A DNA stretch of 64,000 nt from an uncultured Gemmatimonadaceae bacterium. GTDB lineage: Bacteria > Gemmatimonadota > Gemmatimonadetes > Gemmatimonadales > Gemmatimonadaceae. The translations under genes were made by a program, and so were the position numbers. Each line of letters begins with the position of its first letter. Within the stretch, counting starts at the first letter, position 1. This document shows positions 4,601-22,471 of the stretch, piece by piece. Where the stretch lies: assembly GCA_963761305.1 (NCBI GenBank), contig CAVXGK010000001.1, positions 1,504,001 to 1,568,000 on the forward strand. The letters are read 5' to 3'. Under the pieces are notes generated by a model. It did no database searches. It had not been told where the DNA came from and saw only the letters and a program-made list of their open reading frames with translations.

Positions 4601-6299
4601 GCTCCACGGCACGGTCCGCGGAACCATGAGCAGCCCGACGTTCTCCAGTCGGTTCGAGCTGACCGACGCCGAGTTCAACGCGGCACCGTTTCCGGGTGTG
4701 CGAGGGCGGGCCACGTACGCCGACCAGCGGCTCGTCGCGCACGCGGACGCGTTCCACGGCACCGGCGAACCGTTGATGACGCTCGACGCTCGGCTCCCGC
4801 TCAACCTGGCGTTCACCGACGTGAAGGGCGATCGCATGTTGAACGAGCCGATGTCGATCGACGTCGTCGGAGACAGCCTGCCGATCGATCTCATCCCGGA
4901 CGTGACGAGCCTCGTGAGCGACGTGCACGGCCGAGCGGCCGGCAAGCTCGCTGTTCGCGGCACCATCGAGCATCCGACGTTGAGCGGATTGGTCACGGTG
5001 GACCACGCCACGACGACCATCGTCTACACCGGCGCGACGGTCGAGAACATCACGGGATCGATTCGCATGGCCGGCGACAGCGTCTACATCGACTCGCTCA
5101 TCGGCAACGCGGTCGGGCCTGTGCGGCTTCAGGGATCGCTCGGCTTCGCCAAGTGGAGCGAGCCGTCGTTCGACCTGGCGCTGAAGTCCGACGCAGCGCG
5201 CCTGGTCAACAACGACGTCGGCGACCTGCGCGTGGACACCGACCTCACGCTCAAGGGTCCGTTCAAGGGCGCGACCGTCGGCGGCGACATCACGCTCGCG
5301 CGCGGCGTGGTGCGCGCCCCGGAGGGGAGTCAGCAAACGCTGGTCGGTCCGGGCGACCCGGGTCTGTTCAATGTGATCGACACGACGAGCGAGCTGGCGC
5401 GCCGCCTTTTTCCTCCGCAATCGCCCTTGCTGGAGCATCTCAAGATCAACGTCGCCGCGCGGGTCAATCCCAACACGTGGGTGCGCAATCGCGCCGCGAA
5501 CATCGAGATCTACACCGTAGAGCCGGTGTACATCACCGATTCGAGCCAGACGCTGATGGTCCGCGGCGTGATCTACACCGACCGCGGCGATTACACGCTG
5601 CTCACCAAGCGATTTCAGATCAGCCGCGGTTCGGCGACGTTCGTCGACGGTCCGGACCTGAATCCGACGCTGCAGATCACGGGCGAGTACCAGGTGAACG
5701 TGGCGACGCGCGGCACGGTGAACATTCAGGTTCAGGTCGGCGGCACGCTCAAGAACCCCAACGTGTCGCTGGAGAGCGACGCTCAGCCGCCGCGATCGCA
5801 GTCGGATTTGTTGACGCTGATCGCGTTCGGCCAGTCGACGTCGTCACTCATCGCGACGAGCGGTTCGAGCGTCGTCGCGACGGGCGCGTCGGACGTCGTC
5901 GGGTCGGGGACGCAGTTCGTGACGTGGCGCCTGGCGACCATCGCGACCGGCGTGCTCGCGGAGCAAGCGGAGTTTCAGGCGGCGCGTTCGCTCAACGCCG
6001 ACGTGTTCAGAATCACGCCGGCAGACACGCCCATCGAGGCCGGAGCCGGCGGCTTGTATGGGTTCCTCACGCAAACAAAGATCGAAGCGGGCAAGTACAT
6101 CACCCCGCGGACGTTCGTGGCGCTTCAGGAGCAGGCGCGAAACATCGGCGCCTCGATCGAACGTCGCACGCTGGACGGATGGCGGATCACGGCGACGTTC
6201 GAGCCGCAGGTCGTCTTGCTCGAGCCGCAGTTGAATTCGCAGCCCATTCGCGGGATTCGGTCGATCGGCGGATTCGTGATTCGGGATTGGCGGTTCTGA
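1664..6299 (+). pseudogene. tamB: TamB/AsmA-like translocation and assembly module protein, split by a +1 frameshift near 3044 (real lesion or sequencing error)
   Basis: ATG at 1664 (TGATG overlap) begins MGRLAKWLTV with an N-terminal TM anchor. Sensible protein runs to ...MLRTW (3043) and continues in the next frame as VTSLPIGGTVTG into ORF 3126..6299, which has a DUF490-like C-terminus. Confidence 0.8.
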
Positions 6300-6304
6300 G
6301 CGGG

Positions 6305-6499
6305 CCGGTGGACCGGTGGACCGGTGGACCGGTGGACCGGTGGACCGGTGGACCGGTGGACCGGTGGACCGGTGGACCGGTGGACCGGTGGACCGGTGGA
6401 CCGGTGGACCGGTGGACCGGTGGACCGGTGGACCGGTGGACCGGTGGACCGGTGGACCGGTGGACCGGTGGACCGGTGGACCGGTGGACCGGTGGACCG
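6305..6499 (+). repeat. Perfect tandem repeat (CCGGTGGA)x24; left arm of four-helix-bundle cassette 1
   Basis: Read directly: 24 units at 6305-6496 plus CCG, starting 5 nt after the tamB stop. Confidence 0.98.
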
Positions 6500-6520
6500 C
6501 ACTGCGAGGATGCGACAAAA

Positions 6521-6565
6521 CGGTACGCCTGGAAAGGATATGGTGGTGGAATTTCTGCGTGACCG
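6521..6565 (+). promoter_or_regulatory. Leader hairpin with ATGGTGGTG in the loop (cassette 1)
   Basis: CGGT/ACCG, ACGC/GCGT and GGAAA/TTTCT pair around loop 6536-6551. The motif is at 6540-6548. Confidence 0.45.
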
Positions 6566-6580
6566 CGCAACCGTTCCGCC

Positions 6581-6949
6581 ATGCGAAATCCTGCGGATCT
6601 TCGAGTTATTGCGGAGGCGCGAGAGGTGGCGATCGCCACCTACTCGGCGACGGCGCGATTCCCCAACGCCGAGCGATTTGGGTTGACGTCGCAAATGCGG
6701 CGGGCGGCGGTCTCGATCGGGTCCAACGTCGTCGAGGGCTGCCACCGCGCAGGCAACCGTGCGTTTGTGGTGTTTCTCTACAACGCGCTCGGTTCTGCCG
6801 CCGAGCTTCAGTTTCAGATTGAGCTAGCGCTAGAGCTCAGCTTTGGCGACCGCGGTGGGCTCGAGTCGCTGCATGGCCGCGCGCCACGGATTGTAAGAAG
6901 ATGCTTTCTCGACTCATCGCGAGCCTTCGCCGCCGCGACGAATAGCTAG
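6581..6949 (+). CDS. Four helix bundle protein (TIGR02436 / 23S rRNA IVS protein / Avd-like), probable 3' frameshift
   Basis: Signature FPxxERFGLTSQMRRAAVSIGSNVVEGCHR...FLYNALGSAAEL. A family-like last helix (CKKMLSRLIASLRR, stop 6943-6945) lies in another frame after ~6882. Confidence 0.9.
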   Translation: MRNPADLRVIAEAREVAIATYSATARFPNAERFGLTSQMRRAAVSIGSNVVEGCHRAGNRAFVVFLYNALGSAAELQFQIELALELSFGDRGGLESLHGRAPRIVRRCFLDSSRAFAAATNS

Positions 6950-6960
6950 ATCCCTTCGCC

Positions 6961-6991
6961 GTCCACCGGTCTACCGGTCCACCGGTCCACC
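6961..6991 (-). repeat. Inverted copy (~4 units, one with a substitution) of the CCGGTGGA repeat; right arm of cassette 1
   Basis: GTCCACCGGTCTACCGGTCCACCGGTCCACC is the reverse complement of the upstream array. It ends 1 nt before the dipeptidase stop. Confidence 0.95.
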
Positions 6992-6992
6992 T

Positions 6993-8363
6993 CTACTTCG
7001 CCAGTTCCTCCCAGAGTGCCGCCATCGCCCGCATGCCCTTGTAGAAGTTGTCCTCGCTCATCCACTCGTTCGGCGCGTGGGCGTTCTCACCGGGCAAACC
7101 GAATCCGACGAGCAGAACAGGGGCATTGAGGATTCGTTGAAAATCGCCGACGACCGGAATCGAGCCGCCTTCGCCGGTGATCACGGGCTCACGGTCGAAT
7201 GCGGTGGCGAGGGCGCGGCGAGCGGCGTCGAACAGCGGGCCGGCCAGGTCGGCGCGCCACGGGTTGCCGCCGTGCAGCGGACGCACCGTCGCTTCGACGC
7301 CCGGCGGACACACCTTCTGAACGTGGGCGCGCATGACTTGCTCGATCTTCTCCGGGCGCTGGTCCGGCACGAGGCGGCAGCTCACCTTCGCCATGGCCAC
7401 GGAGGGGAGGACGGTCTTGGCGCCTTCGCCGGTGTAGCCGCTGAGCAAGCCGTTCACTTCGCACGTCGGACGCATCCACAGGCGCTCGAGCGTCGTGTAC
7501 CCTTTCTCGCCAAACAGCTCGGGCGACCCGGTCTCGACGCGGAATGCCTTTTCGTCGAATGGCAGCTGTTTCATCTGGCGGCGCGCGACGTCGCCCCAGT
7601 CGCGCACGTCGTCGTAGAACCCGTCGATCGTGATATGCCCGTCGGCGTCGTGCATCGTGGCGAGGATTCGACCCAGCGCCATCGCGGGGTTCATCACCGC
7701 GCCGCCGTAGCTGCCCGAGTGGAGATCGGTCTCGGGGCCGCGCACGTCGATCTGGAAATAGGCGAGGCCGCGCAGCGACGAGAGAATCGACGGCAAGCCG
7801 GGCGCGAACATCGCCGAATCGGAAATGACCACCGCGTCGCACGCGAGCTCCTTGGCGTGCGCTTCGATGAACTCGGCGAGGTGTTCGCTGCCGACTTCTT
7901 CTTCGCCCTCGGCGAGTACGATGATGTTGACCGGCAGCGTGCCGCGCGTCGCGAGATGCGCCTCGAGCGCCTTCACGTGCAGGAACAGTTGCCCTTTGTC
8001 GTCGACCGAACCGCGCGCGAAGATCTTGCGGTCGCGCACCGTCGGCTCGAACGGCGGGCTGCTCCACAGCTCGAGCGGCTCGACGGGCTGCACATCGTAG
8101 TGGCCGTAGATCAGCACCGTCTGCGCACCGGGCGCGTTGCGCCATTCGCCGACGACGATCGGGTGGCCCTTGGTGCCGTGCACCTTCACGGTGAGTCCGA
8201 TCGAGCGCATCGAGTTGGCGACCCACTCGGCGGCGCGCGCCGTGTCCGCGTTGTGCTCTGAGCGCGCGCTCACGCTCGGAATGCGCAGCAGGTCGAACAG
8301 CTCGTCGCGCGCGCGCGACTGGTTCTTGTCGAAGAAGGTCGTGAGGTCGTTGGACAGTGGCAT
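6993..8363 (-). CDS. M20/M25/M40 family dipeptidase (ArgE/DapE-like)
   Basis: YGHYDVQP, ARGSVDDKGQ, EGEEEVGS, DLHSG and NAHAPNE motifs. Confidence 0.95.
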   Translation of the reverse strand: MPLSNDLTTFFDKNQSRARDELFDLLRIPSVSARSEHNADTARAAEWVANSMRSIGLTVKVHGTKGHPIVVGEWRNAPGAQTVLIYGHYDVQPVEPLELWSSPPFEPTVRDRKIFARGSVDDKGQLFLHVKALEAHLATRGTLPVNIIVLAEGEEEVGSEHLAEFIEAHAKELACDAVVISDSAMFAPGLPSILSSLRGLAYFQIDVRGPETDLHSGSYGGAVMNPAMALGRILATMHDADGHITIDGFYDDVRDWGDVARRQMKQLPFDEKAFRVETGSPELFGEKGYTTLERLWMRPTCEVNGLLSGYTGEGAKTVLPSVAMAKVSCRLVPDQRPEKIEQVMRAHVQKVCPPGVEATVRPLHGGNPWRADLAGPLFDAARRALATAFDREPVITGEGGSIPVVGDFQRILNAPVLLVGFGLPGENAHAPNEWMSEDNFYKGMRAMAALWEELAK

Positions 8364-8575
8364 TACCCGTGACCCGTTGGAATTCCGTTTTTTTGAGAAC
8401 GAATGCCCGAATGGGGAGAATGCTACACGCCGCCAGGCTTCGTCGCATGTCCGGGCGCCAACCAGCGGAGCCTGTCGGTGAGTCGGGCATCGCGCGCGCC
8501 ACGAGCTCGGTTGTCCGGCTTCGGGGCAGGACTTCGTAATTACGTCACGCGAATTCCTCCATCCGACAGGTACCC

Positions 8576-9946
8576 ATGTCCGCTTCTCCAGTCGCTTCCT
8601 CCAGCCTGTTCTCCGATCTCGCCGCGGATTTCGACGGCGAGCTGATTCTGCCCGGTGCTGCCGAGTACGACGCCACGCGAGCGGTGTGGAACGGGATGAT
8701 CGACCGCCGACCGGCGTGCATCGCCATCTGCAAGAATGTGCCGAACGTCCGACGCGCCGTTCAGTTCGCGCGCGCCAACGACATCACGCTCGGCGTGCGT
8801 GGCGGCGGACACAACGCGGCCGGCCTCTCGAGCGTGGACGATGGTCTGGTGATCGATCTGCGCGGCATGCGCGACGTCGTCGTCGACCCGGCGCGTAGGA
8901 TCGCGCGCGCCGGCGGCGGCGCGACATGGGCCGACTTCGACAAAGCGACCGCCGCACACGGACTCGCGACGACCGGCGGCGTCATCTCGTCGACCGGGAT
9001 CGCCGGGCTTTCACTCGGCGGCGGCCTGGGATGGCTGATGCGGAGCCACGGACTGGCCTGCGACAACATCGTCAGCGCGGAAGTCGTCACGGCCGACGGT
9101 CAGGTCGTGCGCGCCAGCGCGGACGAGAATCCTGATCTCTTCTGGGCGCTGCGGGGCGGCGGCGGGAACTTCGGCGTCGTCACGAGGTTCGAGTTCCAGT
9201 TGCACGAGGTCTCCACGGTGCTCGGCGGCATGCTCATCTATCCGATCTCCCGCGCGCGCGACGTGCTGCGGTTGTATCGCGACGTGACGCGCACCGCGCC
9301 CGACGCGCTCACCGTGTTCGCGGCGATGATGCACACGCCCGACGGCGTGCCGGTCATCGCGCTGGCGATGTGCTACAACGGTCCGGTGAACGACGGCGAG
9401 AGGGCGATCGCGGCGATTCGCGCCTTCGGTTCGCCGATCGCGGGCGAGGTGGGGCCGATTCCCTACACCGCGCTGCAGACGATGCTCGACGCCGGCTTCC
9501 CGTCGGGACTTCAGGTGCACTGGCGCTCGGAGTTCGCCGCGGCGCTTCCCGACGAGTTGATCGACACGCTCGTGACGGCATTCAAGGGCGTGCGGTCGCC
9601 GCTCAGCGCACTTCTCATCGAGCAATTCGGCGGCGCCGTGCGTCGCGTCGCGCCCGACGCGACGGCGTACGACCAGCGCGACGCGGACTACAACCTCGTG
9701 CTCGTCTCACGCTGGGCGACGCCGGCCGAGGCCGAGCCGAACGTGAAGTGGGCGCGCCAGACGTCGGATGCGGTGAAGTCATTCGGCAACGGACGGGTGT
9801 ACGTGAACTACATCGGCGCGGGTGAAGGCCCGGACCGAGTCCGCGCGTCGTTCGGCCCGGCCAAGTTCACGCGCCTCGCCGCGATCAAGCGGCGGTGGGA
9901 TCCGACGAACGTGTTCCGGATGAATCAGAACATCCTGCCTGGCTGA
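8576..9946 (+). CDS. FAD-binding oxidoreductase (VAO/berberine bridge enzyme family)
   Basis: VRGGGHN, LSLGGGLGWL, ALRGGGGNFGVVT, and C-terminal YVNY...KRRWDPTNVF. Confidence 0.95.
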   Translation: MSASPVASSSLFSDLAADFDGELILPGAAEYDATRAVWNGMIDRRPACIAICKNVPNVRRAVQFARANDITLGVRGGGHNAAGLSSVDDGLVIDLRGMRDVVVDPARRIARAGGGATWADFDKATAAHGLATTGGVISSTGIAGLSLGGGLGWLMRSHGLACDNIVSAEVVTADGQVVRASADENPDLFWALRGGGGNFGVVTRFEFQLHEVSTVLGGMLIYPISRARDVLRLYRDVTRTAPDALTVFAAMMHTPDGVPVIALAMCYNGPVNDGERAIAAIRAFGSPIAGEVGPIPYTALQTMLDAGFPSGLQVHWRSEFAAALPDELIDTLVTAFKGVRSPLSALLIEQFGGAVRRVAPDATAYDQRDADYNLVLVSRWATPAEAEPNVKWARQTSDAVKSFGNGRVYVNYIGAGEGPDRVRASFGPAKFTRLAAIKRRWDPTNVFRMNQNILPG

Positions 9947-10064
9947 TCGCGCCCGAACGGCTTCAATCGATAGTCGATCGCTAGATAGTCGATCGCTTCC
10001 AGCTCGAAGGCGGCGGCGGCGAGCTTGTCGTGCGCCGTCGTCAACACGACGGCCGGGCTGCAGC
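9944..10064 (-). pseudogene. Relic of a LytTR-type response regulator receiver domain
   Basis: Translates as PAVVLTTAHDKLAAAAFELEAIDYLAIDYRLKPFGRD, matching the TTAxD...AFE..A.DYLLKP pattern. It has an internal duplication and lacks both flanking parts. Confidence 0.7.
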
Positions 10065-10257
10065 TGATGCGGTGGTGAGCGCCGCCGTCTGGCGGCTGAG
10101 CGCGAACGTCACGTCGCCGGCGGTCCACCGGAACAATGACGTTGACCGCGCGGGGCTGCGGGAGGGAGCGGGTCAAAACCAGCCGTTTGGACCTCGCGCC
10201 TCCGCTGACAACGCTCTATCATCCGCTACGGCGCAACTGACGAAGGGGGGGCCGGAC

Positions 10258-10842
10258 GTGGCTGCAAGCGATCAAGACGGAAAGGGCGTGGCGGACGAGC
10301 GAGACGAAATCGCGCACGGCCTTCAGGCGGAGATCGCCCAGCGTCGGCCCTTCCATTCGGTCAAGGCGGAGGTCGCGGTCGGTATTCTGCGGACCGCGGC
10401 GCTCATCGAGCGGCACTTCGCGCAGGTCGTCGCGCAGACCGGCGTGACCGTGCAGCAGTACAACGTGCTGCGCATCCTGCGCGGCGCGGGCCCCGACGGA
10501 CTGCCGACGCTCGTCATCCGCGATCGCATGATCCACGCGGCCCCGGGCATCACGCGTCTGCTCGACAAGCTCGAGAAGGCCGAACTCGCGCGTCGCGAGC
10601 GCGCGTCGCCCGATCGGCGCCAAGTGTTCTGCTACATCACGCCGAAGGGACTCGACGTCCTCACGCTGCTCGACGAGGCGATGCGTCGCGCCGACGACCT
10701 CGCCGTCGGCAACCTCGACGAGTCGGAGCAGCGGCAGTTGATCAAACTGCTCGAGGGCGTGCGCGCCGTGCATCGCTCGGGCAACGCGCCGATCGACAGC
10801 GCGCTAGTTGGACGCGGGCCAATTCCCTCGCCAACCGACTAG
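10258..10842 (+). CDS. MarR family transcriptional regulator
   Basis: VTVQQYNVLRILRGA...ITRLLDKLE...DRRQVFCYITPKG. GTG start at 10258 follows a G-rich RBS (alternative start 10288). Confidence 0.9.
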   Translation: MAASDQDGKGVADERDEIAHGLQAEIAQRRPFHSVKAEVAVGILRTAALIERHFAQVVAQTGVTVQQYNVLRILRGAGPDGLPTLVIRDRMIHAAPGITRLLDKLEKAELARRERASPDRRQVFCYITPKGLDVLTLLDEAMRRADDLAVGNLDESEQRQLIKLLEGVRAVHRSGNAPIDSALVGRGPIPSPTD

Positions 10843-12327
10843 CGTCCATACGCGGCGGCGCCCGATCTCACCCGCGCCGCGCCGCAGCACCACCAGCGCT
10901 CCCCGCTCGACGGTCGTGAAGTATGGCGTGAGTCGCGCGATCGCCGCGTGCGGATCGGCGGATTCGTCCACGACCAACACCAACGCGTCACCAGCGCGGG
11001 CGACTTCGGGAAATCGCGGCCACAGGTCGTACTGGTTCGCGCGCCCCGACAAGTTCGTGGCGAACGCAGTCGGGTTTCCGGCTGAAAGGAGCGCCAACTC
11101 GGCGGCTTCCTGATAACGATCGGCGGCGATCCACGTCGTCGCGTTCGTCGACGCGTGCACCGCGCGGCTGGTGCTGTCGGCGGCGCGCGCCAAATCGCTC
11201 CAGCCGAACGCGCGTGCCACGGGATCGCGCGCCGGCGCTAGCGGCAAGACCGGCGTCAATCCCTGCACGTAAATCGCCAGCGACATCGCCGCCGCGAGAA
11301 CGACGCCCGCACGCAGCCACGCGTCGCGGGCGCGAGTGCGCGCGCCACACGCGAGCAGCACGATGGCCGGGATGTAGGCCGGAGCCGGCCAATTCGCCTC
11401 GACGCGCTGCCGAATGGCGCTGTACGCGAAGAACCCGAACGACACCAGCGCGACGACGCCCAGCACTCGCTCGGCGTCATCCGCCTGTTTGGTGAACGAG
11501 CGCCACACCACGACGCCCATCATCACGAACAGAATGGGCGAGACAAGCGCAGCCTGTCCGCCGAACAGATCTCCTTCGTGCTTCCACGCGGCCACGAGCG
11601 CCGAACCCTGTGGCGCCGAAAGTCCGTGCTTCAACTGAAACGCGAACGACACCCACTCGTGCCGCGCGTTCCACACCACGACCGGCATGAACACGAGCGC
11701 GGCGACGACGCACGCGACATACGGTCCCGGTTCGCGCAGCCGCGCGCGCAACGACGGTCGCGTCGCGAACGAGATCAACACGCCGAGCGGCAGCAGAATC
11801 GCGGTGTACTTGGAGAGAAACGCCACGCCGAGCGCGACGCCGGCGGCGAGCCACCAACGCAATGAACTCGAGGAGTCGACCTCGAGCGAGCGGACGACGA
11901 AATAGAGCGTCGCGGCGGTGCAAGCGAGCAACGGCGCATCGGGCGTCGCGAGCACGAGCCCGGCCGCGGCGAGCGGCAGCACGCTCATCACGACGGCCGA
12001 GCGCAGAGCGGTTCTCGCATCGCCGAGTCGAGCGGCGATCGCGATGGTAAAGAGCGACGCAACCCAGCCGGCGAGAATCGATCCCAACCGAATGCCGAGC
12101 GGTGTCGCGCCGAAGAACGTCGTCCCGAATCGAATCAGCAGCGCGACGACCGGCGGATGATCGAAATAGCTCGGCGCGAGCCGGCGAGACCATTCCCAGT
12201 AGTACGCTTCGTCGGGAAATACCGGCAACAGCGCGGCGAAGACGAGACGGATCACAGCCGCCACACTTACTACGAGCATAGCTCGCTTCCAACGGCCGTC
12301 GTGCTTCGCGGTCGCCCCGGTCGTCAC
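10804..12327 (-). CDS. Glycosyltransferase family 39 (ArnT/PMT-like) membrane protein
   Basis: DEAYYWEWS...YFDHPP, TPDAP and LSKYT motifs; multiple TM segments. GTG start overlaps the upstream stop (GTGA). Confidence 0.9.
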   Translation of the reverse strand: MTTGATAKHDGRWKRAMLVVSVAAVIRLVFAALLPVFPDEAYYWEWSRRLAPSYFDHPPVVALLIRFGTTFFGATPLGIRLGSILAGWVASLFTIAIAARLGDARTALRSAVVMSVLPLAAAGLVLATPDAPLLACTAATLYFVVRSLEVDSSSSLRWWLAAGVALGVAFLSKYTAILLPLGVLISFATRPSLRARLREPGPYVACVVAALVFMPVVVWNARHEWVSFAFQLKHGLSAPQGSALVAAWKHEGDLFGGQAALVSPILFVMMGVVVWRSFTKQADDAERVLGVVALVSFGFFAYSAIRQRVEANWPAPAYIPAIVLLACGARTRARDAWLRAGVVLAAAMSLAIYVQGLTPVLPLAPARDPVARAFGWSDLARAADSTSRAVHASTNATTWIAADRYQEAAELALLSAGNPTAFATNLSGRANQYDLWPRFPEVARAGDALVLVVDESADPHAAIARLTPYFTTVERGALVVLRRGAGEIGRRRVWTLVGWRGNWPASN

Positions 12328-13658
12328 GCCGGCGCCGGGGCGTGCGCTCGCCGGCGCACGACCGCGACGATTCCCACGATCGCCCACGTCCACACGATCC
12401 ACATCACGCGCTCGTCGGGCGACAAGGTCGTGAGCATCCGCCACGCGACCGCCGGCCCGGCGAGCACGACCGACGTCGGCGTGTTCGATTCAGCCGTGCG
12501 ACGCTCGGCGACGCGAGTCGCGTCCTTGCGGCCGTTGCGAATGACTTCTTCGATTCGGCGAGAGAGCGAGTCGCCGCTCATGCCGCGCCACCCCGGAATG
12601 CGCATCAGCGTCCATGCCGACGCGGCGCGTCCGTATCCATGGTTGTCGGATCCGGACACGACGGCGAGGTTGAGTTTGTTGACGAGCGTGTCGATGCGCG
12701 CGCGGTCGCGATGGCTCTGCGTGAGACCGCGCGGCGAGCCGTCGACGATTTCGATCGCCTGCACACCGCCGCCCGCGCCGAGATCCGGACCGGCGGCCGG
12801 CACCTTGTCGAGATTGCCCGGGATCGTTTCAATGAGCACCGGCGTCGTGGGAGGCAGGATGCTCGCCATCTGCAACGCTTGCTCGTCGACGTCGCCGAGG
12901 TCGGGCGACAGAAGTCCGTTGTAGCGGCGGCCGGCATTGAGAACGTTCACATGCTCGCCGTGGAACATCGCCTCGATGCCCTGCAGGAGCATCGTGCCCT
13001 GCCCTGCTTCCGGCGGATTCGACGCGACGCCGCGTTCCGCGCCGGCGAACGACCGATGGTCGGTGATGTACGCGACGTCGTAGCCGGCGTCGCGATGCCA
13101 ATCGCGAACGTCGTCGTCCGTCCATCCGCCGCGCGCGTCGTGCGATGCGTTCGTGTGCGAGTGGAAGTCGGCCGCGAGCACCGTTTCGTCGGAGACGGTG
13201 AGCGACGCCATCGGACGCGGCAGGAACGCGGCGGCGGCATACGTGACGAGTATCGCGCCGAGCAGCACTCCCGCGCCGACGATCTCTCGGCGCACGTCGG
13301 GTTTGGTGCTCGACGCCATCAGCCGCCAGACGGCGTACACGCCGATGATCCACAGGACCACTGAGATGTGTTGCGGAATCGTGAGCAGCGTGATCGTGTC
13401 GAGAATCGCCGAGAGCGGCGCGAGCGTGATGTAACCGGGCGAGACCTCGAGGCGCGCTTCGCCGACCGGCTCCAGGTTCAACGCATCGCGGATGGGGTCG
13501 GTGGCAAACGCCGCGGTGACGAGCACCGCGAGCGTGACGACGACGGCCCACCACGGAATTCGGCGGTGCCACGGCATCTTCGGCGCGTCAACCGGCGCCG
13601 TGTGCGCGTGCGGCGCTGTGTGCGCACCATGCGCCGTCTTGCGACTCGACTTGGCCAT
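12324..13658 (-). CDS. Membrane-anchored PHP-domain metal-dependent phosphoesterase
   Basis: DFHSHTNASHD, ITDH, GIE and GSDNHG motifs, flanked by TM helices. Confidence 0.8.
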   Translation of the reverse strand: MAKSSRKTAHGAHTAPHAHTAPVDAPKMPWHRRIPWWAVVVTLAVLVTAAFATDPIRDALNLEPVGEARLEVSPGYITLAPLSAILDTITLLTIPQHISVVLWIIGVYAVWRLMASSTKPDVRREIVGAGVLLGAILVTYAAAAFLPRPMASLTVSDETVLAADFHSHTNASHDARGGWTDDDVRDWHRDAGYDVAYITDHRSFAGAERGVASNPPEAGQGTMLLQGIEAMFHGEHVNVLNAGRRYNGLLSPDLGDVDEQALQMASILPPTTPVLIETIPGNLDKVPAAGPDLGAGGGVQAIEIVDGSPRGLTQSHRDRARIDTLVNKLNLAVVSGSDNHGYGRAASAWTLMRIPGWRGMSGDSLSRRIEEVIRNGRKDATRVAERRTAESNTPTSVVLAGPAVAWRMLTTLSPDERVMWIVWTWAIVGIVAVVRRRAHAPAPA

Positions 13659-13727
13659 CGCGGATTACCTTCTGTGGAACGCGTCGCGCATCTGTCGCAA
13701 AACTGACGAGCCGAGCCGCATCTCACA

Positions 13728-15782: not shown

Positions 15783-15804
15783 GTTGAGGTCTTTGTCTCC
15801 ACTC

Positions 15805-16377
15805 ATGTCCTTCGCGCACGCCTACCTGATTCTCGGCCTATGGCTGTTGTGGATGGCCATCTGGCTGCTGTCCGCCGGAGTCACGAAGAAGAACGTGCGC
15901 CGCGAATCGCTGGCGTCGCGCTTGTCGTACACGGTGCCGCTCTGGATCGCCGCGTGGCTGCTGGTCAGTCGCCGATTGCCGTGGGCGGCGCTCAACGAGC
16001 GCTTCGTGCCGCTGGCCGAGTGGCCGTTCGTCGTCGGCACGGCGTTGGTGGTGCTCGGCCTCGCGTTCGCCGTGTGGGCCCGCGTGTTCCTCGGCCGCAA
16101 CTGGTCGGCGGCGGTCACGCTCAAGCAGGGTCACGAATTGATTCGGTCGGGCCCGTACCGCTGGGTTCGGAACCCGATCTACACCGGCATCCTCATCGCG
16201 ATTGCCGGCAGCGCGCTGGCTCGCGGCCAGCGGGGCGCCGTGCTCGCGCTGCTCTTCGCGTTCGCTTCGTTCTGGTACAAGGCGCGGATCGAGGAGCGCG
16301 TGCTGCACGACGCATTCGGGGCGGAGTACGACGTATACCGGGGCGAAGTGAAGTCGTTGATACCGTTCGTTCTGTGA
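15805..16377 (+). CDS. Isoprenylcysteine carboxylmethyltransferase (ICMT/Ste14) family protein
   Basis: LGRNWS...HELIRSGPYRWVRNPIYTG...EERVL; hydrophobic. Confidence 0.9.
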   Translation: MSFAHAYLILGLWLLWMAIWLLSAGVTKKNVRRESLASRLSYTVPLWIAAWLLVSRRLPWAALNERFVPLAEWPFVVGTALVVLGLAFAVWARVFLGRNWSAAVTLKQGHELIRSGPYRWVRNPIYTGILIAIAGSALARGQRGAVLALLFAFASFWYKARIEERVLHDAFGAEYDVYRGEVKSLIPFVL

Positions 16378-16392
16378 GCAGTGCTGCGCCGA

Positions 16393-17721
16393 TCACGGCA
16401 GAGCAGGTGCGACGGACGCGCTCTTGTAGACATAGCCGTTCTTCATCACGAACACGGGATGCTCCATGACGTGAATGTCCTGGAGCGGATCGCCCGGCAC
16501 GGCGACGATGTCGGCCCACTTCCCCGTCGCCAGCGATCCGATCTGCTTGTCCCAGCCGAGCAGCTTCGCGCCGCTCATCGTGCCGGCGACGATCGATTGC
16601 ATCGGCGTCATGCCGCCCCATTCGACCATCAGCGTGAACTCGTGGCCGTTGGTGCCGTGCGCGCCCACGCCGGCGTCGGTGCCGAGCGCGATCGGCACGC
16701 CGTCCTTCACGGCGATCTTGACGGCGTTCTTCATCGCCGCCGCCGCGGCGCGGGCCTTCTGTGCTCGGAGGCCCTTGAGAATGCCCACGTCAGCCGCATG
16801 CGCCGCGGCTTCGCCCGCGCTCAGCGTCGGTACGAGGTATGTGCCGTGCTGCACCATGAGCCGCGCGCCTTCTTCGTCGAGAAAAGAGCCGTGTTCGATC
16901 GACGCGACGCCGGCGCGCACCGCGGTCTTGATGCCTTCGGTGCCGTGCGCATGCGCGGCGACCTTTCGCTCGAGCTTCGTCGCTTCGTCGACGAGCGCTT
17001 TCATCTCTTCGTAGGTGTACTGCTGCACGCCGACCGCGTCGCCTTCCGAGAGCACGCCGCCCGTCGCGCACATCTTGATGACGTCCGCGCCGTACTTCGC
17101 CTGGTAGCGCACCGCGGCGCGGATCTGATCGGCGCCGTCGGCGATGCCCAGCATCGGATTGCCGTCCATCAACCCCGGACGAAAGCCGTTTTCGTCGCAG
17201 TGGCCGCCGGTGATTCCGATCGCGTGTCCGGCATTCTGCATGCGCGGGCCGATGACGTTGCCTTCGTTCACGGCTTTGCGCAGCGCCATGTCGTCGAAGT
17301 TCGGCGCGCCGACGTTGCGAATCGTGGTGAATCCCGCGAGCAGCGTCTTCTGCGCATTGGAGACGCCGATGATCGCCGCCGTCCCCTCGTAGTCGCGCAC
17401 CGCCGCGTCGTTCTCCTGCGGATCAGCGAGGTCACGGCCGATGATGTGCGTATGCGCGTCGATGAATCCCGGCAGGAGGGTGACGTCGCCGAGATCCACG
17501 AGCTTGGCGCCGGCGGGAATCGTCACCGAGCCTTGCTTGCCGACCGCGACGATCTTGTCGTCGGTCACGACGACGACGCCGTTCGGGGTCGCCGCCGCAC
17601 CGGTACCGTCGATCAGCCGCGCGGCGCGAAGGGCGACGGTGCCGGAGCCCTTGAGCTCCTGGGCGTGAAGCGAGACGGCGGTGAGGAGGAGAGCGGCTGC
17701 GGGGACGATGCTGGTGCGCAT
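16393..17721 (-). CDS. Secreted amidohydrolase family protein (Xaa-Pro dipeptidase-like)
   Basis: Signal peptide; PGFIDAHTH, AAHAHG, SIEHG and GTDAG motifs. Confidence 0.9.
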   Translation of the reverse strand: MRTSIVPAAALLLTAVSLHAQELKGSGTVALRAARLIDGTGAAATPNGVVVVTDDKIVAVGKQGSVTIPAGAKLVDLGDVTLLPGFIDAHTHIIGRDLADPQENDAAVRDYEGTAAIIGVSNAQKTLLAGFTTIRNVGAPNFDDMALRKAVNEGNVIGPRMQNAGHAIGITGGHCDENGFRPGLMDGNPMLGIADGADQIRAAVRYQAKYGADVIKMCATGGVLSEGDAVGVQQYTYEEMKALVDEATKLERKVAAHAHGTEGIKTAVRAGVASIEHGSFLDEEGARLMVQHGTYLVPTLSAGEAAAHAADVGILKGLRAQKARAAAAAMKNAVKIAVKDGVPIALGTDAGVGAHGTNGHEFTLMVEWGGMTPMQSIVAGTMSGAKLLGWDKQIGSLATGKWADIVAVPGDPLQDIHVMEHPVFVMKNGYVYKSASVAPALP

Positions 17722-17816
17722 TGTTTTTCACGGAAGGGGGGGACGTGAAGAACCTTCCGGCGGGGACCCGGCCGCACAAGGGTACGGGCGTTCTCAGTTA
17801 CGAGGACGTCAGCCCC

Positions 17817-18581
17817 TCAGACCTCCAGCCGATAGCCGGCCTTCCACACGGTGAGAATGTGCCGCGGCTGCGACGGATCGTCTTCGATCTTCCGGCGAAG
17901 CTCCGCGATGTGAATGTCCACCGTCCGCGTCATCACCTCGACCCGGTGTCCCCACACTTCGCGCAGCAGCTCCACTCGCGACGCCACCGCGCCGCGCCGG
18001 CGCACGAGCGCCAGCAACAAGTCGAACTCCTTCGGGCTGAGACCGACCGGCGTTCCGTGTTTCGTCACCGTGCGCGACGCCGGATTGATCTCCACGCCGC
18101 CGAACTTCTCGACCGACTCGGACGAGTGCGAGCGCTGGTCCGCCAGACGCGACCGCCGCAGCAGCGCCCCGACGCGCGCCAGCAGCTCGAGCACGCCGCA
18201 CGGCTTCGTCACGTAGTCGTCGGCGCCGAGCCGGAAGCCGAGCACCTTGTCCGCCTCTTCGCCGCGCGCGGTGAGGATCAGCACCGGAATGTCCGAGCCG
18301 CCTTCGCGCAGCGACTTGAGCACGCGATAGCCGTCCATGCCGGGCAGCATCAGGTCGAGCATCAGCAGGTCCGGACTCCAACTCCGCGCGCGCTCGAGTC
18401 CCGTTTCGCCATTCTCGGCCACCTGCACGTCGTAGCCTTCGATCTCGAGGCCCGTGCGAAGACCGTAGGCGAGGTTGACGTTGTCTTCGACGATGAGGAT
18501 TCGTGCCATAGGCGTCGGGAGTGGGGCCGCGAAGCTGTCGGTCATCGTCGGCCGTTTCTCTGCCACGGTAGCGTACGTCAT
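17817..18581 (-). CDS. OmpR-family response regulator
   Basis: ILIVEDN, LDLMLP, GADDYVTKP and a winged helix (TRTVDIHIAELRRKIE). ATG at 18581 overlaps the kinase stop; alternative start 18509. Confidence 0.95.
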   Translation of the reverse strand: MTYATVAEKRPTMTDSFAAPLPTPMARILIVEDNVNLAYGLRTGLEIEGYDVQVAENGETGLERARSWSPDLLMLDLMLPGMDGYRVLKSLREGGSDIPVLILTARGEEADKVLGFRLGADDYVTKPCGVLELLARVGALLRRSRLADQRSHSSESVEKFGGVEINPASRTVTKHGTPVGLSPKEFDLLLALVRRRGAVASRVELLREVWGHRVEVMTRTVDIHIAELRRKIEDDPSQPRHILTVWKAGYRLEV

Positions 18582-20377
18582 GGGACCACCTGAAGTTGCG
18601 AGTTGGGGGGTGCTGGTGGGGGCGGCTGGGACTGATCGGTGGAAAGCGGCGTGGACTCGGGCGACTCCGGCTGAACGAGCGGCAGCTCGACGACGACCCG
18701 TGCTCCGCCCCCGGGCGCGCTCTCGGCGCGCGTGCGTCCGCCATGCAGGACCACGAGTTCGCGCACGACGGAGAGGCCGATGCCGCTGCCGCCGGTGGAC
18801 GATTCCGCGTCGCGATTGAGGCGGACGTACGGCTCCCAGACGCGCACGCGGTCTTCACGCGGTATGCCCGGACCTTCGTCCTCGACCCAGATGCGCGCGC
18901 GGTCGCCGACGATCTGCGATCCGACGGTGATCGTCTGACTCGACGGGCCGTATTTCGCGGCGTTGTCGAGGAGGTTGAGCAGAATCTGGCGCAGCGCGTT
19001 TCGATCGACGCTCACGATGCCGTTGATCCCGAGCGACGGACGAATCGTCATGCTACGCGCGCGGGCGAGCGGCGCGAACAGGTCGAGCGATTCCTGAATC
19101 TCCTGGTCGATCTCGGCGGCCTCCGGCGACACGCGGTTCGTTCCCTTCTCGGCGCGCGAGAAATTGAGCACGTTCTCGACGAGATACGTGAGACGCCGCG
19201 CCTCCTGATCGATGATGCCCGCCGAGCGTTCGCGTTCGTCGTCCGTGCGCAGCTTGCCGAGGTGGAGCAGCTCGGCGAACCAGCGAATTTGCGCCAGCGG
19301 CGTGCGCAGCTCGTGCGAGACGCCGGAGACGAATTCCGTGCGCAGCCGCGCGAGCTGCTGCTGCCGCCGCAGCTGGATCACGGCGACGGTCAGCAGTCCC
19401 GCGGCGAGCACGAACAGCGCGACGAGGATCGGCAGCCGAGAGTCCGGCAGGCCGCCGACCACGAGCATCGGCGCGAACTCTTTATTCAGGCTCACCTTCA
19501 TCTTGAGCCGCCCGAAGTTCGGCTCGACCATCGACGCCGCGCTGTACGTCGTCGCGATCCATCCCGGGGAGTGATACACCTCTTTCCCGTTCGCCGTCGT
19601 CACGGAGATCGACATGATCGAATCGATCGAGAGTCCGTGAATGAGCGCTTCGGGCAAGAGCGAGCTGCCGCTGCCGTTCGTGCCGCGAATCTCGGCGAAG
19701 ACAGGGCGTAGGAACTGCCCGGGATCCGTCACGTAGCCGTACAGCTCTACCGGCAACCCGCGGCGGACGTCGCGCGCCACGACGAACACGACGAGTTGCA
19801 GATGCTTGCTGTTGTGCTCGTCGAACAACATGACGTACGAGTCGTTGGTGAGAATCACCGCCGACTGCCGCATCGAGCCGCCGTCGGGCGTCACGAAATG
19901 GACGACGCCGCGATTCGTCGGCGGCGGCGCCATGTCGTTCACGTACGCGACCATCGTGTCGCGCACGCGCGCGAGGTCGGCGTCGGCGAGATCGGTGTCG
20001 GTCGTGCGGAACGTCGAGTCCTTCCAGTCGTAGCGAAAGTAGTACTGGACGCTGTCCAGGCAGTCGCACGACCCCGCCATCATGTAGCGCGCGATGTCGC
20101 CGACTTCGGCCGGCGTGTAGAGCGTGCGCGCCAGCGAGTCCGGCTTGAGACGCGAGGCCTGCTGGATGAGCGACGTGACCACCTGGGAGAGCAGCGCGTT
20201 CTTCGCCTGCTGCGTCAACTGCCAATCGGCGATCTTGGCGTAGTCCTGCAGCGTCCGCTCGGCCATGACCCGCTGCGAGCGGGCGGCGTCCCACGCCTGA
20301 TACGTGAGCGCCGCGCACACGACGAGCGCGAGGACCAGGAGAGCGACCGTGCCGACTAGGCGGGGGGAGCGACGCAT
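18578..20377 (-). CDS. Membrane sensor histidine kinase
   Basis: Two TM segments, SHELRTPL, NLLDNAAKY, DEGPGI and GSGIGL. Start is uncertain (20377-20401). Confidence 0.93.
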   Translation of the reverse strand: MRRSPRLVGTVALLVLALVVCAALTYQAWDAARSQRVMAERTLQDYAKIADWQLTQQAKNALLSQVVTSLIQQASRLKPDSLARTLYTPAEVGDIARYMMAGSCDCLDSVQYYFRYDWKDSTFRTTDTDLADADLARVRDTMVAYVNDMAPPPTNRGVVHFVTPDGGSMRQSAVILTNDSYVMLFDEHNSKHLQLVVFVVARDVRRGLPVELYGYVTDPGQFLRPVFAEIRGTNGSGSSLLPEALIHGLSIDSIMSISVTTANGKEVYHSPGWIATTYSAASMVEPNFGRLKMKVSLNKEFAPMLVVGGLPDSRLPILVALFVLAAGLLTVAVIQLRRQQQLARLRTEFVSGVSHELRTPLAQIRWFAELLHLGKLRTDDERERSAGIIDQEARRLTYLVENVLNFSRAEKGTNRVSPEAAEIDQEIQESLDLFAPLARARSMTIRPSLGINGIVSVDRNALRQILLNLLDNAAKYGPSSQTITVGSQIVGDRARIWVEDEGPGIPREDRVRVWEPYVRLNRDAESSTGGSGIGLSVVRELVVLHGGRTRAESAPGGGARVVVELPLVQPESPESTPLSTDQSQPPPPAPPNSQLQVVP

Positions 20378-20496
20378 ATGTCTATACATACGTTCTGACA
20401 CGGCCGGGGCCAGTGGCGGAAATCGGGTTTACGGATTCCTTTCAGCGCGTCGGGCGACGCCGCCGGTCTTGCAACCTTTTTTGCTCCCCCCCCCAA

Positions 20497-21126
20497 ATGT
20501 CGACCATATACGATGTCTCGCTGCCGATCGTGAACGGGGGCCTCGTTTACCCCGGCAACCCCGACATCACGATCACGCCGCAGCAGGAAATATCGAAGGG
20601 GGCCAGTGCGAACGTTTCTCTGCTCACGTTCGGGTCTCACACAGGGACCCACGTCGATGCGCAGAAGCACATCATCGACGGCGGCCTAGCGATCGACGCG
20701 GTCCCGCTGGACGTCCTCATGGGACCGGCCATTCTCATCGCCATTCCGGACGACGTCATGGCGGTCGGCGAGAAGGAGCTGCGTGCCCATGATCTTACCG
20801 GCCAGCAGCGCGTTTTGATCCGCACGCGGAACTCGGCGTTCATCCGCCAACGCGACTTCGTGCGCGACTATACCTACCTCGCGCCCGACGGCGCGACATA
20901 CCTCGCGGACCTCGGCGTGAAGCTCGTCGGGATCGACTACCTGTCCATCGAGCAGTTCCACTCCGGGCACCACATGACGCATCGTACGCTGCTCGGCCGG
21001 AACATCGTGATCGTCGAAGGGCTCGATCTGTCGGTGCCACCGGCCGGCACGTACGACCTGCGCGTCTTGCCGCTACGACTCGCCGGGCTCGACGGTGCAC
21101 CGGCGCGTGCCGTGCTCGTCGCATGA
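20497..21126 (+). CDS. Cyclase family protein (kynurenine formamidase-like metal hydrolase)
   Basis: HTGTHVDA, GIDYLS, H..LL, IVEGL and DGAPARA motifs. Confidence 0.92.
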   Translation: MSTIYDVSLPIVNGGLVYPGNPDITITPQQEISKGASANVSLLTFGSHTGTHVDAQKHIIDGGLAIDAVPLDVLMGPAILIAIPDDVMAVGEKELRAHDLTGQQRVLIRTRNSAFIRQRDFVRDYTYLAPDGATYLADLGVKLVGIDYLSIEQFHSGHHMTHRTLLGRNIVIVEGLDLSVPPAGTYDLRVLPLRLAGLDGAPARAVLVA

Positions 21127-21734
21127 CGGCCACGCTCGACTGGGTTCTGTTCGACGTCGGCGGGGTGCTCGGCACGAACGCGTGGGATCGCGAGCAGCGC
21201 GCCGAGGCCATCGCGAAGTTCGGTCTCGAGCAGGAGGACTTTCAGTACCGGCACGAAGAGATGGTCGGCGCGTTGGAGGCCGGCCAGGTCACGCTCGACG
21301 AGTATCTCGCCGTAACGGTGTTCTGCGAGCCGAGATCATTTTCGCCGGAGGACTTCAAGAAGTTCATGTTCGCGCAGAGTGTCGCGTGGCCGGACTCGAT
21401 CGCCATCGCGCGCGAGTTGGCGAAGTCGGGCGCCGTGCGATTGGCGACGCTCAACAACGAGAGCGAAGCGCTCAACGAGCATCGGATCGAGCTTTTTGGG
21501 CTGCGCGACATCTTTCCGACGTTCTTCACGTCGTGCTGGCTCGGCGCGCGCAAGCCCGTGCGCCACACGTACACGCGCGTGCTCGGCATGACGCAGGCGG
21601 AACCGGCGCGAACGCTGTTCATCGACGACCGGCTGCAGAATTTGGCGCCCGCCGCGTCCCTCGGCATTCAGACGCTACAATTCACGACTGCTCAACGACT
21701 GCGTGATGATTTGAAGCGGATGCAGGTGCTGTAG
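21123..21734 (+). CDS. HAD family hydrolase/phosphatase
   Basis: FDVGGVL, LNN, RKP and FIDDR motifs. ATGA overlap with the cyclase gene. Confidence 0.92.
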   Translation: MTATLDWVLFDVGGVLGTNAWDREQRAEAIAKFGLEQEDFQYRHEEMVGALEAGQVTLDEYLAVTVFCEPRSFSPEDFKKFMFAQSVAWPDSIAIARELAKSGAVRLATLNNESEALNEHRIELFGLRDIFPTFFTSCWLGARKPVRHTYTRVLGMTQAEPARTLFIDDRLQNLAPAASLGIQTLQFTTAQRLRDDLKRMQVL

Positions 21735-21744
21735 CCTCGAAAGA

Positions 21745-21866
21745 GGGACGAGTGCGGGGGCGGGGTGCGGAGAACTGGGACGAGTGCGGGGGCGGGGTGC
21801 GGAGAACCTGGAACGAGTGCCGGGGGGCGGGGTGCGGGGAGCTGGGACGAGTGCTGGGTGCGGGGA
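21745..21866 (+). repeat. G-rich ~32-bp tandem repeat (~3.7 copies, GGGACGAGTGCGGGGGCGGGGTGCGGAGAACT); left arm of cassette 2
   Basis: Units start at 21745, 21777, 21810 and 21844 and are progressively degenerate. Confidence 0.93.
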
Positions 21867-21876
21867 TTTGATTGCG

Positions 21877-21917
21877 CACGCGCTCGAATGGTGGTGATCC
21901 CGGGAAGTCGAGCGGTG
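21877..21917 (+). promoter_or_regulatory. Leader hairpin with ATGGTGGTG in the loop (cassette 2)
   Basis: CGCTCGA (21881-87) pairs with TCGAGCG (21908-14), extended by CAC/GTG. The motif is at 21888-21896. Confidence 0.45.
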
Positions 21918-21927
21918 ATCTTCGCGC

Positions 21928-22374
21928 ATGACTCAGACTTCAGTTCCGGCGGATCAGCTCGAGTGGGAGCGCGGGTACCCCGCCGCGATCACGAGCGACA
22001 CGATCTGGAAGCTAAATGTGTATCGCGCCGCGCTCTATCTGCTCGACCTCACAAGGGCGGGTGTTCGACTGGGCATGAAGCGCGGACTCGATCGCGAGTT
22101 GGCGGGGCAACTGCTTCGTTCAGTGGCCTCGATCAGCGCCAACATCGCCGAAGGCTACAGCCGGTCAACGCGCGGCGACCGGCTTCGATTCTACGGATAC
22201 TCCCTCAGCTCTTTGCGCGAATGCCCTTCATGGTGTCGCGCCGCGAGCGACTACCTACTGCCCGACACCTGCGACCATCGCCTCACCGTTGTCGCACAAA
22301 TTCGCCCGCCGCTTCTCGGGCTGATCCGCTCGACTCGCACGCGAAATCACCCGCGCAACGAATTCGAGCCGTAG
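21928..22374 (+). CDS. Four helix bundle protein (TIGR02436 / Avd-like), second divergent copy
   Basis: WKLNVYRAA...LAGQLLRSVASISANIAEGYSR...RFYGYSLSSLRE...LLGLIRS. Confidence 0.9.
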   Translation: MTQTSVPADQLEWERGYPAAITSDTIWKLNVYRAALYLLDLTRAGVRLGMKRGLDRELAGQLLRSVASISANIAEGYSRSTRGDRLRFYGYSLSSLRECPSWCRAASDYLLPDTCDHRLTVVAQIRPPLLGLIRSTRTRNHPRNEFEP

Positions 22375-22396
22375 CCAACTCACCGCATACCGTCTC

Positions 22397-22471
22397 GGCA
22401 CTCTCGTTCCAGTTCTCCGCACCCCGCCGCCGCACTCGTTCCAGTTCTCCGCACCCCGCCGCACTCGTTCC
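22397..22471 (-). repeat. Inverted copy (~2.4 units) of the ~32-bp repeat; right arm of cassette 2
   Basis: Its reverse complement reads GGAACGAGTGCGGCGGCGGGGTGCGGAGAACT. It abuts the stop codon at 22471. Confidence 0.93.

What the first reader, a model, noticed from the sequence alone, without database searches (positions are those of the whole stretch)
6300..22471. Recurrent cassette: four-helix-bundle (Avd-like) genes caged by inverted tandem-repeat arms at convergent gene junctions
Seen: the same layout occurs twice (6305-6991 and 21745-22471) as G-rich tandem repeat > ~60-80 nt leader > four-helix-bundle ORF > C-rich inverted copy of that repeat. The repeat units are unrelated (8 bp vs ~32 bp) and the proteins are divergent, so the architecture is conserved rather than the sequence. 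Each cassette fills nearly the whole gap between two convergent stop codons. Known: this fold includes proteins encoded in excised 23S rRNA intervening sequences and the RNA-binding Avd protein of diversity-generating retroelements. Inference: this may be a transposase-less mobile or selfish module, or an RNA-level element whose arms pair into a long stem that loops out the ORF (RNase III-type excision, stabilisation or circularisation) while targeting harmless 3'-3' junctions.
Basis: partly seen in the sequence, partly recalled or inferred. Interest (0 to 1): 0.85.

Follow-up and report, generated by a model that had tools for sequence, protein, structure and literature searches.

The report
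Repeat-armed four-helix-bundle mobile cassettes
Two small genes of unknown function each sit between mirror-image runs of short repeats, and related bacteria show these units changing place, flipping and leaving gene-less copies in a lineage where the RNA-cutting enzyme proposed to excise them was not found, so they are likely a slow, DNA-level mobile element with no recognisable jumping enzyme.

Summary
Both ORFs are PF05635/TIGR02436 four-helix-bundle (S23p/Avd-fold) genes between inverted tandem arms. This packaging is a family trait: 72 of 124 loci versus 24 of 3628 other genes of this genome, and 35 of 78 loci from at least ten phyla versus 0 of 71 controls. Close relatives show movement: cassette 1's lineage, with its octamer-type arms, sits at four different junctions; cassette 2 is flipped in two genomes and one metagenome contig, and a gene-less hairpin stands there in another. 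A 97%-identical pair sits at two sites of this genome, and about 200 gene-less arrays match cassette 1's arm. The protein is under purifying selection. Movement is slow: most lineages keep one junction. RNase III was found in 0 of 42 genomes of this class, so RNase III excision is not supported here. RT (8 of 31) and Y1 transposase (7 of 31) do not track the cassettes. Convergent junctions are favoured, not required. Best reading: a REPIN-like DNA cassette copied through its arms; the protein's role is inferred. This scan noted the layout before (371 notes, at least 352 genomes); I found no paper describing it outside rRNA.

The parts
3126..6299 (+). host gene, TamB-domain protein (left neighbour of cassette 1)
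   Evidence: PF04357 160 bits; NF047952
6305..6499 (+). cassette 1 left arm, 24.4 x CCGGTGGA (G-rich), starts 6 nt after the tamB stop; member of the genome's dominant octamer family
6500..6580 (+). cassette 1 leader; ATGGT motif at -41 (6540-6544) and a -10-like hexamer AACCGT 6 nt before ATG; conserved in orthologous cassettes at other junctions; promoter role inferred
6581..6949 (+). ORF1, four-helix-bundle S23p/Avd-fold protein (PF05635/TIGR02436); 2 extra bases near 6876 put the last helix out of frame relative to orthologues
   Evidence: fold of intact orthologue
6958..6991 (-). cassette 1 right arm, inverted copy (about 4 units), ends 1 nt from the dipeptidase stop
6993..8363 (-). host gene, M20 dipeptidase (right neighbour of cassette 1)
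   Evidence: NF006053 580 bits
21123..21734 (+). host gene, HAD-family hydrolase (left neighbour of cassette 2)
21745..21865 (+). cassette 2 left arm, 3.7 x ~32-mer (G-rich)
21866..21927 (+). cassette 2 leader; ATGGT at -40 (21888-21892), -10-like GATCTT 5 nt before ATG; promoter role inferred
21928..22374 (+). ORF2, divergent four-helix-bundle protein; the orthologue at the same junction points the other way in G019, G022 and a metagenome contig
22375..22471 (-). cassette 2 right arm, inverted copy (2.3 clear units at 22403-22471 plus a diverged inner part)
22471..23736 (-). host gene, FMN-dependent alpha-hydroxy-acid oxidase (right neighbour of cassette 2)
   Evidence: PF01070 372 bits
26516..26758 (.). 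gene-less inverted doublet at the convergent zwf / RNB-gene junction; arm type resembles the flanks of GxxExxY genes of this genome
60596..60614 (-). single gene-less arm of the cassette-1 octamer family just before a start codon

Best explanation
Each unit is a small DNA cassette (inverted tandem-repeat arms, a short leader and an S23p/Avd-fold gene) that relocates, flips and leaves gene-less copies over the time scale of speciation, likely by being copied between arrays of its own repeat family through recombination at the arms. Shown: the packaging, relocation between junctions with the arms and leader attached, both orientations at one junction with the switch point inside the arms, a near-identical pair in one genome, gene-less doublets of each arm family, and purifying selection on the protein. 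Inferred: (1) the arms fold back in single-stranded DNA and in read-through RNA, and arm-to-arm conversion keeps the two arms matched while the unit drifts (GGTGGACC, GGTAGGCC, GGTGGAAC, GACGGCTT in one protein clade); (2) host recombination copies the cassette into, or out of, pre-existing arrays of the same family, which already sit next to stop codons, so coding sequence is spared; (3) the leader is a leaderless-type promoter, so the gene is expressed wherever it lands; (4) the protein forms a five-subunit ring like Xcc0516 and bAvd, binds single-stranded tandem units (paired arms have a median of 45 nt, about five or six units) and acts as an annealing or protecting chaperone that favours spread of its own repeat family. 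Step 4 is the weakest.
For: Packaging: (35 of 78 loci in at least ten phyla; 0 of 71 shifted controls). Relocation: ORF1 lineage (74-84% aa identity) at the tamB/dipeptidase junction in G000, at another junction in G005, G017 and G019, after a different gene in G022, and at a further junction in G015; its dS (0.52-0.64 from G000) is in the range of host genes (0.53-0.81), so it moved within the lineage, not by distant transfer. ORF2 lineage at another junction in G024. Empty sites: family gene in 2 of 21 genomes where tamB and dipeptidase are adjacent, 10 of 21 with a gap of 70 nt or less; both sites of the ORF1 lineage keep same-family arm remnants when empty. Inversion: G019, G022 and a contig whose strand switch lies at 21825/22459. 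Pair about 97% identical over about 655 nt at C2:78332 and C1:30863. Gene-less arrays: 204 octamer arrays, neighbours inward-facing 31 versus outward 3; 83 of 109 arrays that follow a stop begin within 30 nt; arm patterns of seven cassettes all recur elsewhere. dN/dS 0.09-0.23 (ORF1, 15 pairs) and 0.04-0.13 (ORF2, 3 pairs). Leader: TANNNT 4-8 nt before ATG in 16 of 62 versus 114 of 1364 control genes and 0-2 of 62 at six shifted offsets; RATGRT in 19 of 62 versus 57 of 2118. Fold: TM 0.92 to 2GSC, 0.77 to bAvd 4DWL. No dedicated enzyme tracks the cassettes.
Against: Most lineages stay put: among six congeners several lineages hold one junction in five or six genomes, and one conserved lineage is uncaged in five of six, which fits a host function. 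52 of 124 and 43 of 78 loci do not reach the cage threshold. Arm remnants at empty sites can be left by loss rather than be landing pads, and the octamer family is common in this genome. No target-site duplication or sharp end was seen. No binding or movement has been shown; core net charge is only +1 at the median; a residue-to-repeat covariation test gave p=0.085. Neither window cassette has a perfect TANNNT. GxxExxY nuclease-fold genes also have inverted flanks (3 of 6 reach the threshold), so an enzyme in trans, of that or an unknown family, could be the real mobiliser. Kin are not independent, so counts across relatives overstate.
Confidence: 0.5

Rival explanations
1. Passenger model: repeat doublets are host-tolerated junction hairpins (3'-end stabilisers or terminators) spread by some other agent; the four-helix-bundle protein does a host job and merely rides inside doublets.
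For: Most lineages fixed at one junction, one conserved uncaged lineage, arm units turning over at fixed sites; GxxExxY genes and one small HTH-like gene also sit in inverted flanks; arrays hug stop codons; purifying selection fits a host role too.
Against: About 80-fold enrichment of cages on this one family over other genes, kept across at least ten phyla; arm type and leader travel with the gene between junctions; 3 of 9 copies in this genome carry small indels against about 3 host frameshifts in 35 kb, as expected of dispensable elements.
Confidence: 0.25
2. Retro-mobility: the arms close an RNA hairpin that the Avd-like ring presents to a reverse transcriptase in trans, and the cDNA integrates at junctions.
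For: Fold match to bAvd, which is required for DGR reverse transcription (10.1101/2023.10.23.563531, passages); strong RNA fold; one RT in this genome (its sequence looks like a group II intron RT to me).
Against: PF00078 found in 8 of 31 genus genomes and not in G005, G017, G019 or G015 (90-98% complete), which hold 9-12 family matches each; an RT motif near 1 of 52 viral loci; an internal promoter would leave the left arm out of the cassette's own transcript.
Confidence: 0.1
3. RNA-level intervening sequence: the arms pair and RNase III excises the ORF loop from read-through transcripts, as for the Coxiella 23S IVS, which makes insertion harmless.
For: Coxiella IVS has an S23p ORF, a 28-bp terminal stem, three tandem heptamers before the ORF and RNase III excision (PMC4990558, passages); stems here are 34-49 bp or longer. 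It may hold in other phyla.
Against: RNase III not found in this genome (PF14622, PF00636), in 0 of 31 genus genomes (TIGR02191) or in 0 of 42 class genomes, while present in 18 of 19 genomes of other classes; TIGR02436 is in 38 of those 42 and 7 of those 19. Excision alone does not explain relocation or inversion.
Confidence: 0.08
4. Invertible switch: the arms exist to flip the ORF and so vary its expression.
For: Cassette 2 occurs in both orientations at one junction.
Against: At a convergent junction both orientations are co-directional with a neighbour, and leader and ORF flip together; no recombinase gene is adjacent in the window; both orientations were seen only between species, never within one population.
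Confidence: 0.05

Closest known systems
ORF-bearing 23S rRNA intervening sequence (S23p; Coxiella burnetii, Leptospira; PMC4990558, passages read)
   Same: Same protein family (PF05635), ORF in the loop of a terminal stem, tandem heptamers just upstream of the ORF.
   Different: Here the inserts lie between protein-coding genes, are multi-copy with many unrelated arm units, have tandem arrays on both sides, relocate and invert, have gene-less copies, are under purifying selection, and occur in a class where RNase III was not found.
REPIN-RAYT systems (PMC3116915, abstract and outline read; 10.1101/2022.05.22.493013, search listing and abstract start only)
   Same: Inward-facing extragenic doublets that fold into hairpins, several families per genome each linked to its own gene, mostly vertical inheritance with slow spread.
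   Different: The linked gene is an Avd-fold protein with no known catalytic role, not a Y1 HUH transposase (none in this genome or its five closest relatives); arms are tandem arrays, not single palindromes; the gene-bearing unit itself relocates.
Intergenic heptamer repeats of Xanthomonas and Nostoc (PMC4692102, passages read)
   Same: G-rich tandem arrays close to upstream stop codons, many as inverted pairs (70 and 75 cases in two Xanthomonas genomes).
   Different: That paper links them to G-quadruplexes, finds no link to mobile elements and never mentions a four-helix protein (0 occurrences); arms here are often 8, 13, 16 or 32 nt and need not contain G-tracts.
DGR accessory protein bAvd (PDB 4DWL, 8UB7; 10.1101/2023.10.23.563531, passages read)
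   Same: Same fold (TM 0.77, 15% identity); pentameric nucleic-acid-binding barrel.
   Different: No adjacent RT; closer to Xcc0516 (TM 0.92, 37% identity) than to bAvd.

Membership tests
PF05635 / TIGR02436 four-helix-bundle (S23p) proteins | HMM score above curated cut-off | tested here: met
   ORF1 94 and 87 bits, ORF2 51 and 61 bits; cut-offs 33.8 and 24
PF05635 / TIGR02436 four-helix-bundle (S23p) proteins | antiparallel four-helix fold like Xcc0516 | tested here: met
   model of the intact G019 orthologue of ORF1, pLDDT 96, four helices, TM 0.92 to 2GSC; the window's ORF1 has its last helix out of frame; ORF2 was not folded
PF05635 / TIGR02436 four-helix-bundle (S23p) proteins | homopentamer | not tested
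23S rRNA intervening sequence | located inside a 23S rRNA gene | tested here: not met
   flanks are protein-coding genes; no Rfam match in 5500-27500
23S rRNA intervening sequence | ORF enclosed by a terminal stem | tested here: met
23S rRNA intervening sequence | excised by RNase III | tested here: not met
   RNase III gene not found in 0 of 31 genus and 0 of 42 class genomes; RNA processing itself could not be tested
REPIN-RAYT | over-represented inward-facing extragenic doublets | tested here: met
   31 inward versus 3 outward; 28 versus 1 among intergenic arrays
REPIN-RAYT | linked Y1 HUH (RAYT) transposase | tested here: not met
   PF01797 absent from G000 (93% complete) and found in 7 of 31 genus genomes, none of G005, G015, G017, G019, G022
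Diversity-generating retroelement | adjacent RT gene | tested here: not met
   single RT about 690 kb away on C1; none in four close relatives
Diversity-generating retroelement | template and variable repeat pair with adenine mismatches | not tested
   not searched
Insertion sequence / MITE | transposase gene, or fixed terminal repeats with target-site duplication | tested here: inconclusive
   no transposase in the cassettes; no duplication seen at the 97% pair or at four empty sites, but relatives are too diverged to exclude short ones

The most novel reading that the evidence does not exclude
These are the autonomous members of an undescribed class of bacterial selfish DNA that has no transposase, RT or RNase III partner: each Avd-fold pentamer binds its own tandem repeat, one unit per subunit, and drives annealing-based copying of repeat doublets, which would make this protein family the engine behind the unexplained 7-8-mer intergenic arrays of many phyla and the ancestor-like free-living form of both the rRNA IVS ORF and DGR Avd.
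Probability: 0.25. Interest if true: 0.9.

Novelty: new variant of a known kind. Interest (0 to 1): 0.7.

Why it matters
It ties a very common family of unknown function (3-13 copies per genome in most relatives) to the long-unexplained intergenic tandem arrays, and gives direct tests: does the ring bind its own repeat, and does the cassette move without a transposase. This window adds three facts that narrow the mechanism: relocation within a genus with arms attached, inversion at the arms, and abundance in a class where RNase III was not found, which removes the obvious explanation borrowed from rRNA intervening sequences.

Tried and rejected
Literature: nine searches found no paper describing four-helix-bundle genes in inverted tandem arms outside rRNA; one search was swamped by unrelated hits for one term; the library lacks most subscription journals, and no supplements were read. 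RNA: no RNA holder listed, so expression and processing stay untested. Contigs of soil runs cover the dipeptidase and stop at its stop codon without covering ORF1; no contig joins across, so this is not counted. Covariation of one residue with the repeat unit: 32 dereplicated heptamer loci, best mutual information 0.28, permutation p=0.085, not corrected for kinship: inconclusive. Automatic unit calling gave many spurious 5-6-mers; units quoted were checked by eye. In one search locus C1:796595 scored low through a misplaced gene end (7 of 9 caged); it scores 74 (8 of 9). Six of ten dipeptidase dS pairs were misaligned and not used. Target-site duplications: none seen. Strict convergent targeting: rejected. 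RAYT, DGR, rRNA IVS membership: rejected as above. Assembly artefact for the arms: rejected, as orthologous cassettes in other genomes have the same arms. Complex prediction not run (pentamer not possible).
Full report
Setting. The window is G000:C1:1504001-1568000 of a 5.2-Mb, 66% GC, 93% complete genome. Earlier AI notes on this genome call it Gemmatimonadota; I did not verify the name. Gene calls for controls come from my own codon-model caller.

Observation. Both ORFs pass the cut-offs of TIGR02436 and PF05635. The intact orthologue of ORF1 from G019 folds into four helices and matches Xcc0516 (TM 0.92), BT_0352 and bAvd (TM 0.77) (sequence match to 2GSC). The window's ORF1 has two extra bases near 6876. 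Host genes show about 3 frameshifts in 35 kb against relatives and the tamB gene itself is split near 3100, so an assembly error is possible.

More than chance. The genome has nine family loci; eight have inverted arms with unrelated units. Of 156 distinct family hits, 124 had full flanks; 72 reached the inverted-flank threshold, against 24 of 3628 genes of this genome, 12 of 1008 with wide flanks, 5 of 201 small genes between convergent neighbours, 18 of 2000 mismatched pairs and 14 of 124 in direct orientation. In named genomes 35 of 78 loci (80 fetched, 2 with short flanks) from at least ten phyla passed, against 0 of 71 shifted windows; 33 of 52 viral-contig loci passed (53 of 67 given to the script). 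The family occurs in 39 of 41 relatives.

Empty, moved and flipped. TamB and the dipeptidase are adjacent in 21 of 29 loci examined; a family gene lies between them in 2 (G000 and an unrelated copy in G011), 10 have gaps of 70 nt or less, and the rest hold single arms or gene-less doublets of various repeat families. HAD and the oxidase are adjacent in 4 of 30 loci: G000 has ORF2 one way, G019 and G022 the other way, G015 a 107-nt gene-less hairpin. A metagenome contig joins the oxidase to the left arm with the strand switch inside the arms. ORF1's orthologous cassette (79-82% DNA identity with leader and octamer arms) sits at another junction in G005, G017 and G019, after a different gene in G022, and a 74% relative sits elsewhere in G015. 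The matching sites in G000 are short and empty, some with octamer remnants. Synonymous distances match host genes, so the move happened inside the lineage. Two copies about 97% identical lie at two sites of G000 and share an outer inverted motif with roughly 220-nt gene-less elements. Against this, a map of 59 loci from six congeners shows most lineages staying at one junction, arm units changing at fixed sites, and one conserved lineage without a cage in five of six genomes. Movement is real but slow.

Gene-less relatives. The cassette-1 octamer family has 204 arrays (1 match in a shuffled C1; 0 in shuffled genome). Neighbouring arrays face inward 31 times and outward 3 times, and arrays that follow a gene start a median of 5-6.5 nt after its stop. 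Doublets of different families are often nested. Arm patterns of seven cassettes recur elsewhere, from 3 to 204 arrays; the cassette-2 pattern is loose (47 arrays, 21 in shuffles). Three of six GxxExxY (PF13366) genes also have inverted flanks.

Junction choice. Among 41 caged high-GC loci 18 are convergent, 21 co-directional and 2 divergent (crude caller, orthologues counted separately), against 355 of 2404 convergent gaps in G000. In G000 only the two window cassettes of nine are convergent.

Expression signals. A TANNNT hexamer lies 4-8 nt before the ATG in 16 of 62 related leaders (control 114 of 1364; 0-2 of 62 at shifted offsets) and RATGRT, mostly near -41, in 19 of 62 (control 57 of 2118). 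Both window cassettes have ATGGT at -41/-40 and an imperfect -10. I infer a leaderless promoter inside the cage. dN/dS is 0.04-0.23.

Which enzyme. Y1 transposase: none in G000, 7 of 31 in the genus. RT: one in G000, 8 of 31 in the genus, none in G005, G015, G017, G019, which hold 9-12 family matches. RNase III: none in G000 with two Pfam models, 0 of 31 in the genus, 0 of 42 in the class but 18 of 19 in other classes of the phylum; the family is in 38 of those 42 and 7 of those 19. These are samples of draft genomes, so the result is 'not found in those searched', but the split by class is clean.

Mechanism. The inversion shows that the arms act as recombination partners. With hundreds of same-family arrays beside stop codons, host recombination can copy or remove the cassette without harming genes, and arm-to-arm conversion keeps the mirror symmetry as units drift. 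Selection on a protein that changes address suggests it serves the element; a five-subunit ring reading tandem units is the simplest link between fold and repeats (paired arms median 45 nt). That role is inferred; my covariation test was inconclusive. I give this 0.5, the passenger model 0.25, retro-mobility 0.1, RNase III excision 0.08, a switch 0.05.

Comparison and novelty. The Coxiella IVS already shows an S23p ORF in a stem with tandem heptamers upstream (PMC4990558, passages); REPINs show doublets linked to a gene (PMC3116915, abstract and outline); Xanthomonas heptamer pairs were described without this protein (PMC4692102, passages); 10.1101/2021.01.26.428298 (passages) added nothing. 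The cassettes work like REPIN-type elements and look like IVSs but fail a defining test of each. Nine searches found no description outside rRNA. This scan has noted the layout 371 times in at least 352 genomes; those notes are not independent support. Verdict: real, new variant of a known kind, interest 0.7.

Noticed in passing
G000 and its class: No RNase III gene found in 42 of 42 sampled genomes of this class, but in 18 of 19 genomes of other classes of the phylum: an apparent class-wide loss, in genomes full of long intergenic hairpins.
   Followed up: partly
G000 C1:1120087, C2:2302118, C2:151842, C2:2215378 (loci L012-L017): GxxExxY (PF13366, PD-(D/E)XK fold) genes have their own inverted flanks and gene-less relatives; two of six look broken. 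A candidate nuclease partner or parallel element class.
   Followed up: partly
window 26516-26758: Gene-less nested doublet at the convergent zwf / RNB-gene junction, arm type like the flanks of GxxExxY genes.
   Followed up: partly
window 1664-6299: The tamB-like gene appears split into two ORFs (1681-3123 and 3126-6299) by a frame change near 3100; possible assembly error.
   Followed up: no
G000 C1:1727003-1731445, C2:1702748, C2:3366941-3379785, C1:1277189: Another dispersed family of about 290-nt elements with 47-nt inverted ends containing an internal palindrome, clustered in tandem; one encloses a small HTH-like ORF.
   Followed up: no
G000 C1:821086-824489 (L011): An RT gene that looks like a group II intron RT (my reading) next to an IS-like element with 22-nt inverted ends.
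   Followed up: partly
L116, L122, L109, L111: The first repeat unit supplies or overlaps the stop codon of the upstream host gene.
   Followed up: no
G000 C2:2381411 (L005) and L268-L270, L279, L280: A divergent, highly conserved, mostly uncaged four-helix-bundle gene at one fixed junction in six congeners: a possible domesticated member.
   Followed up: partly
L025, L027, L286 versus L259, L261: One junction (upstream of what I recall as rplU) holds two different cassette lineages in different species; G000 has none there.
   Followed up: partly
window 9969-9997: Two copies of a 15-mer containing palindromes after a stop codon; not examined.
   Followed up: no
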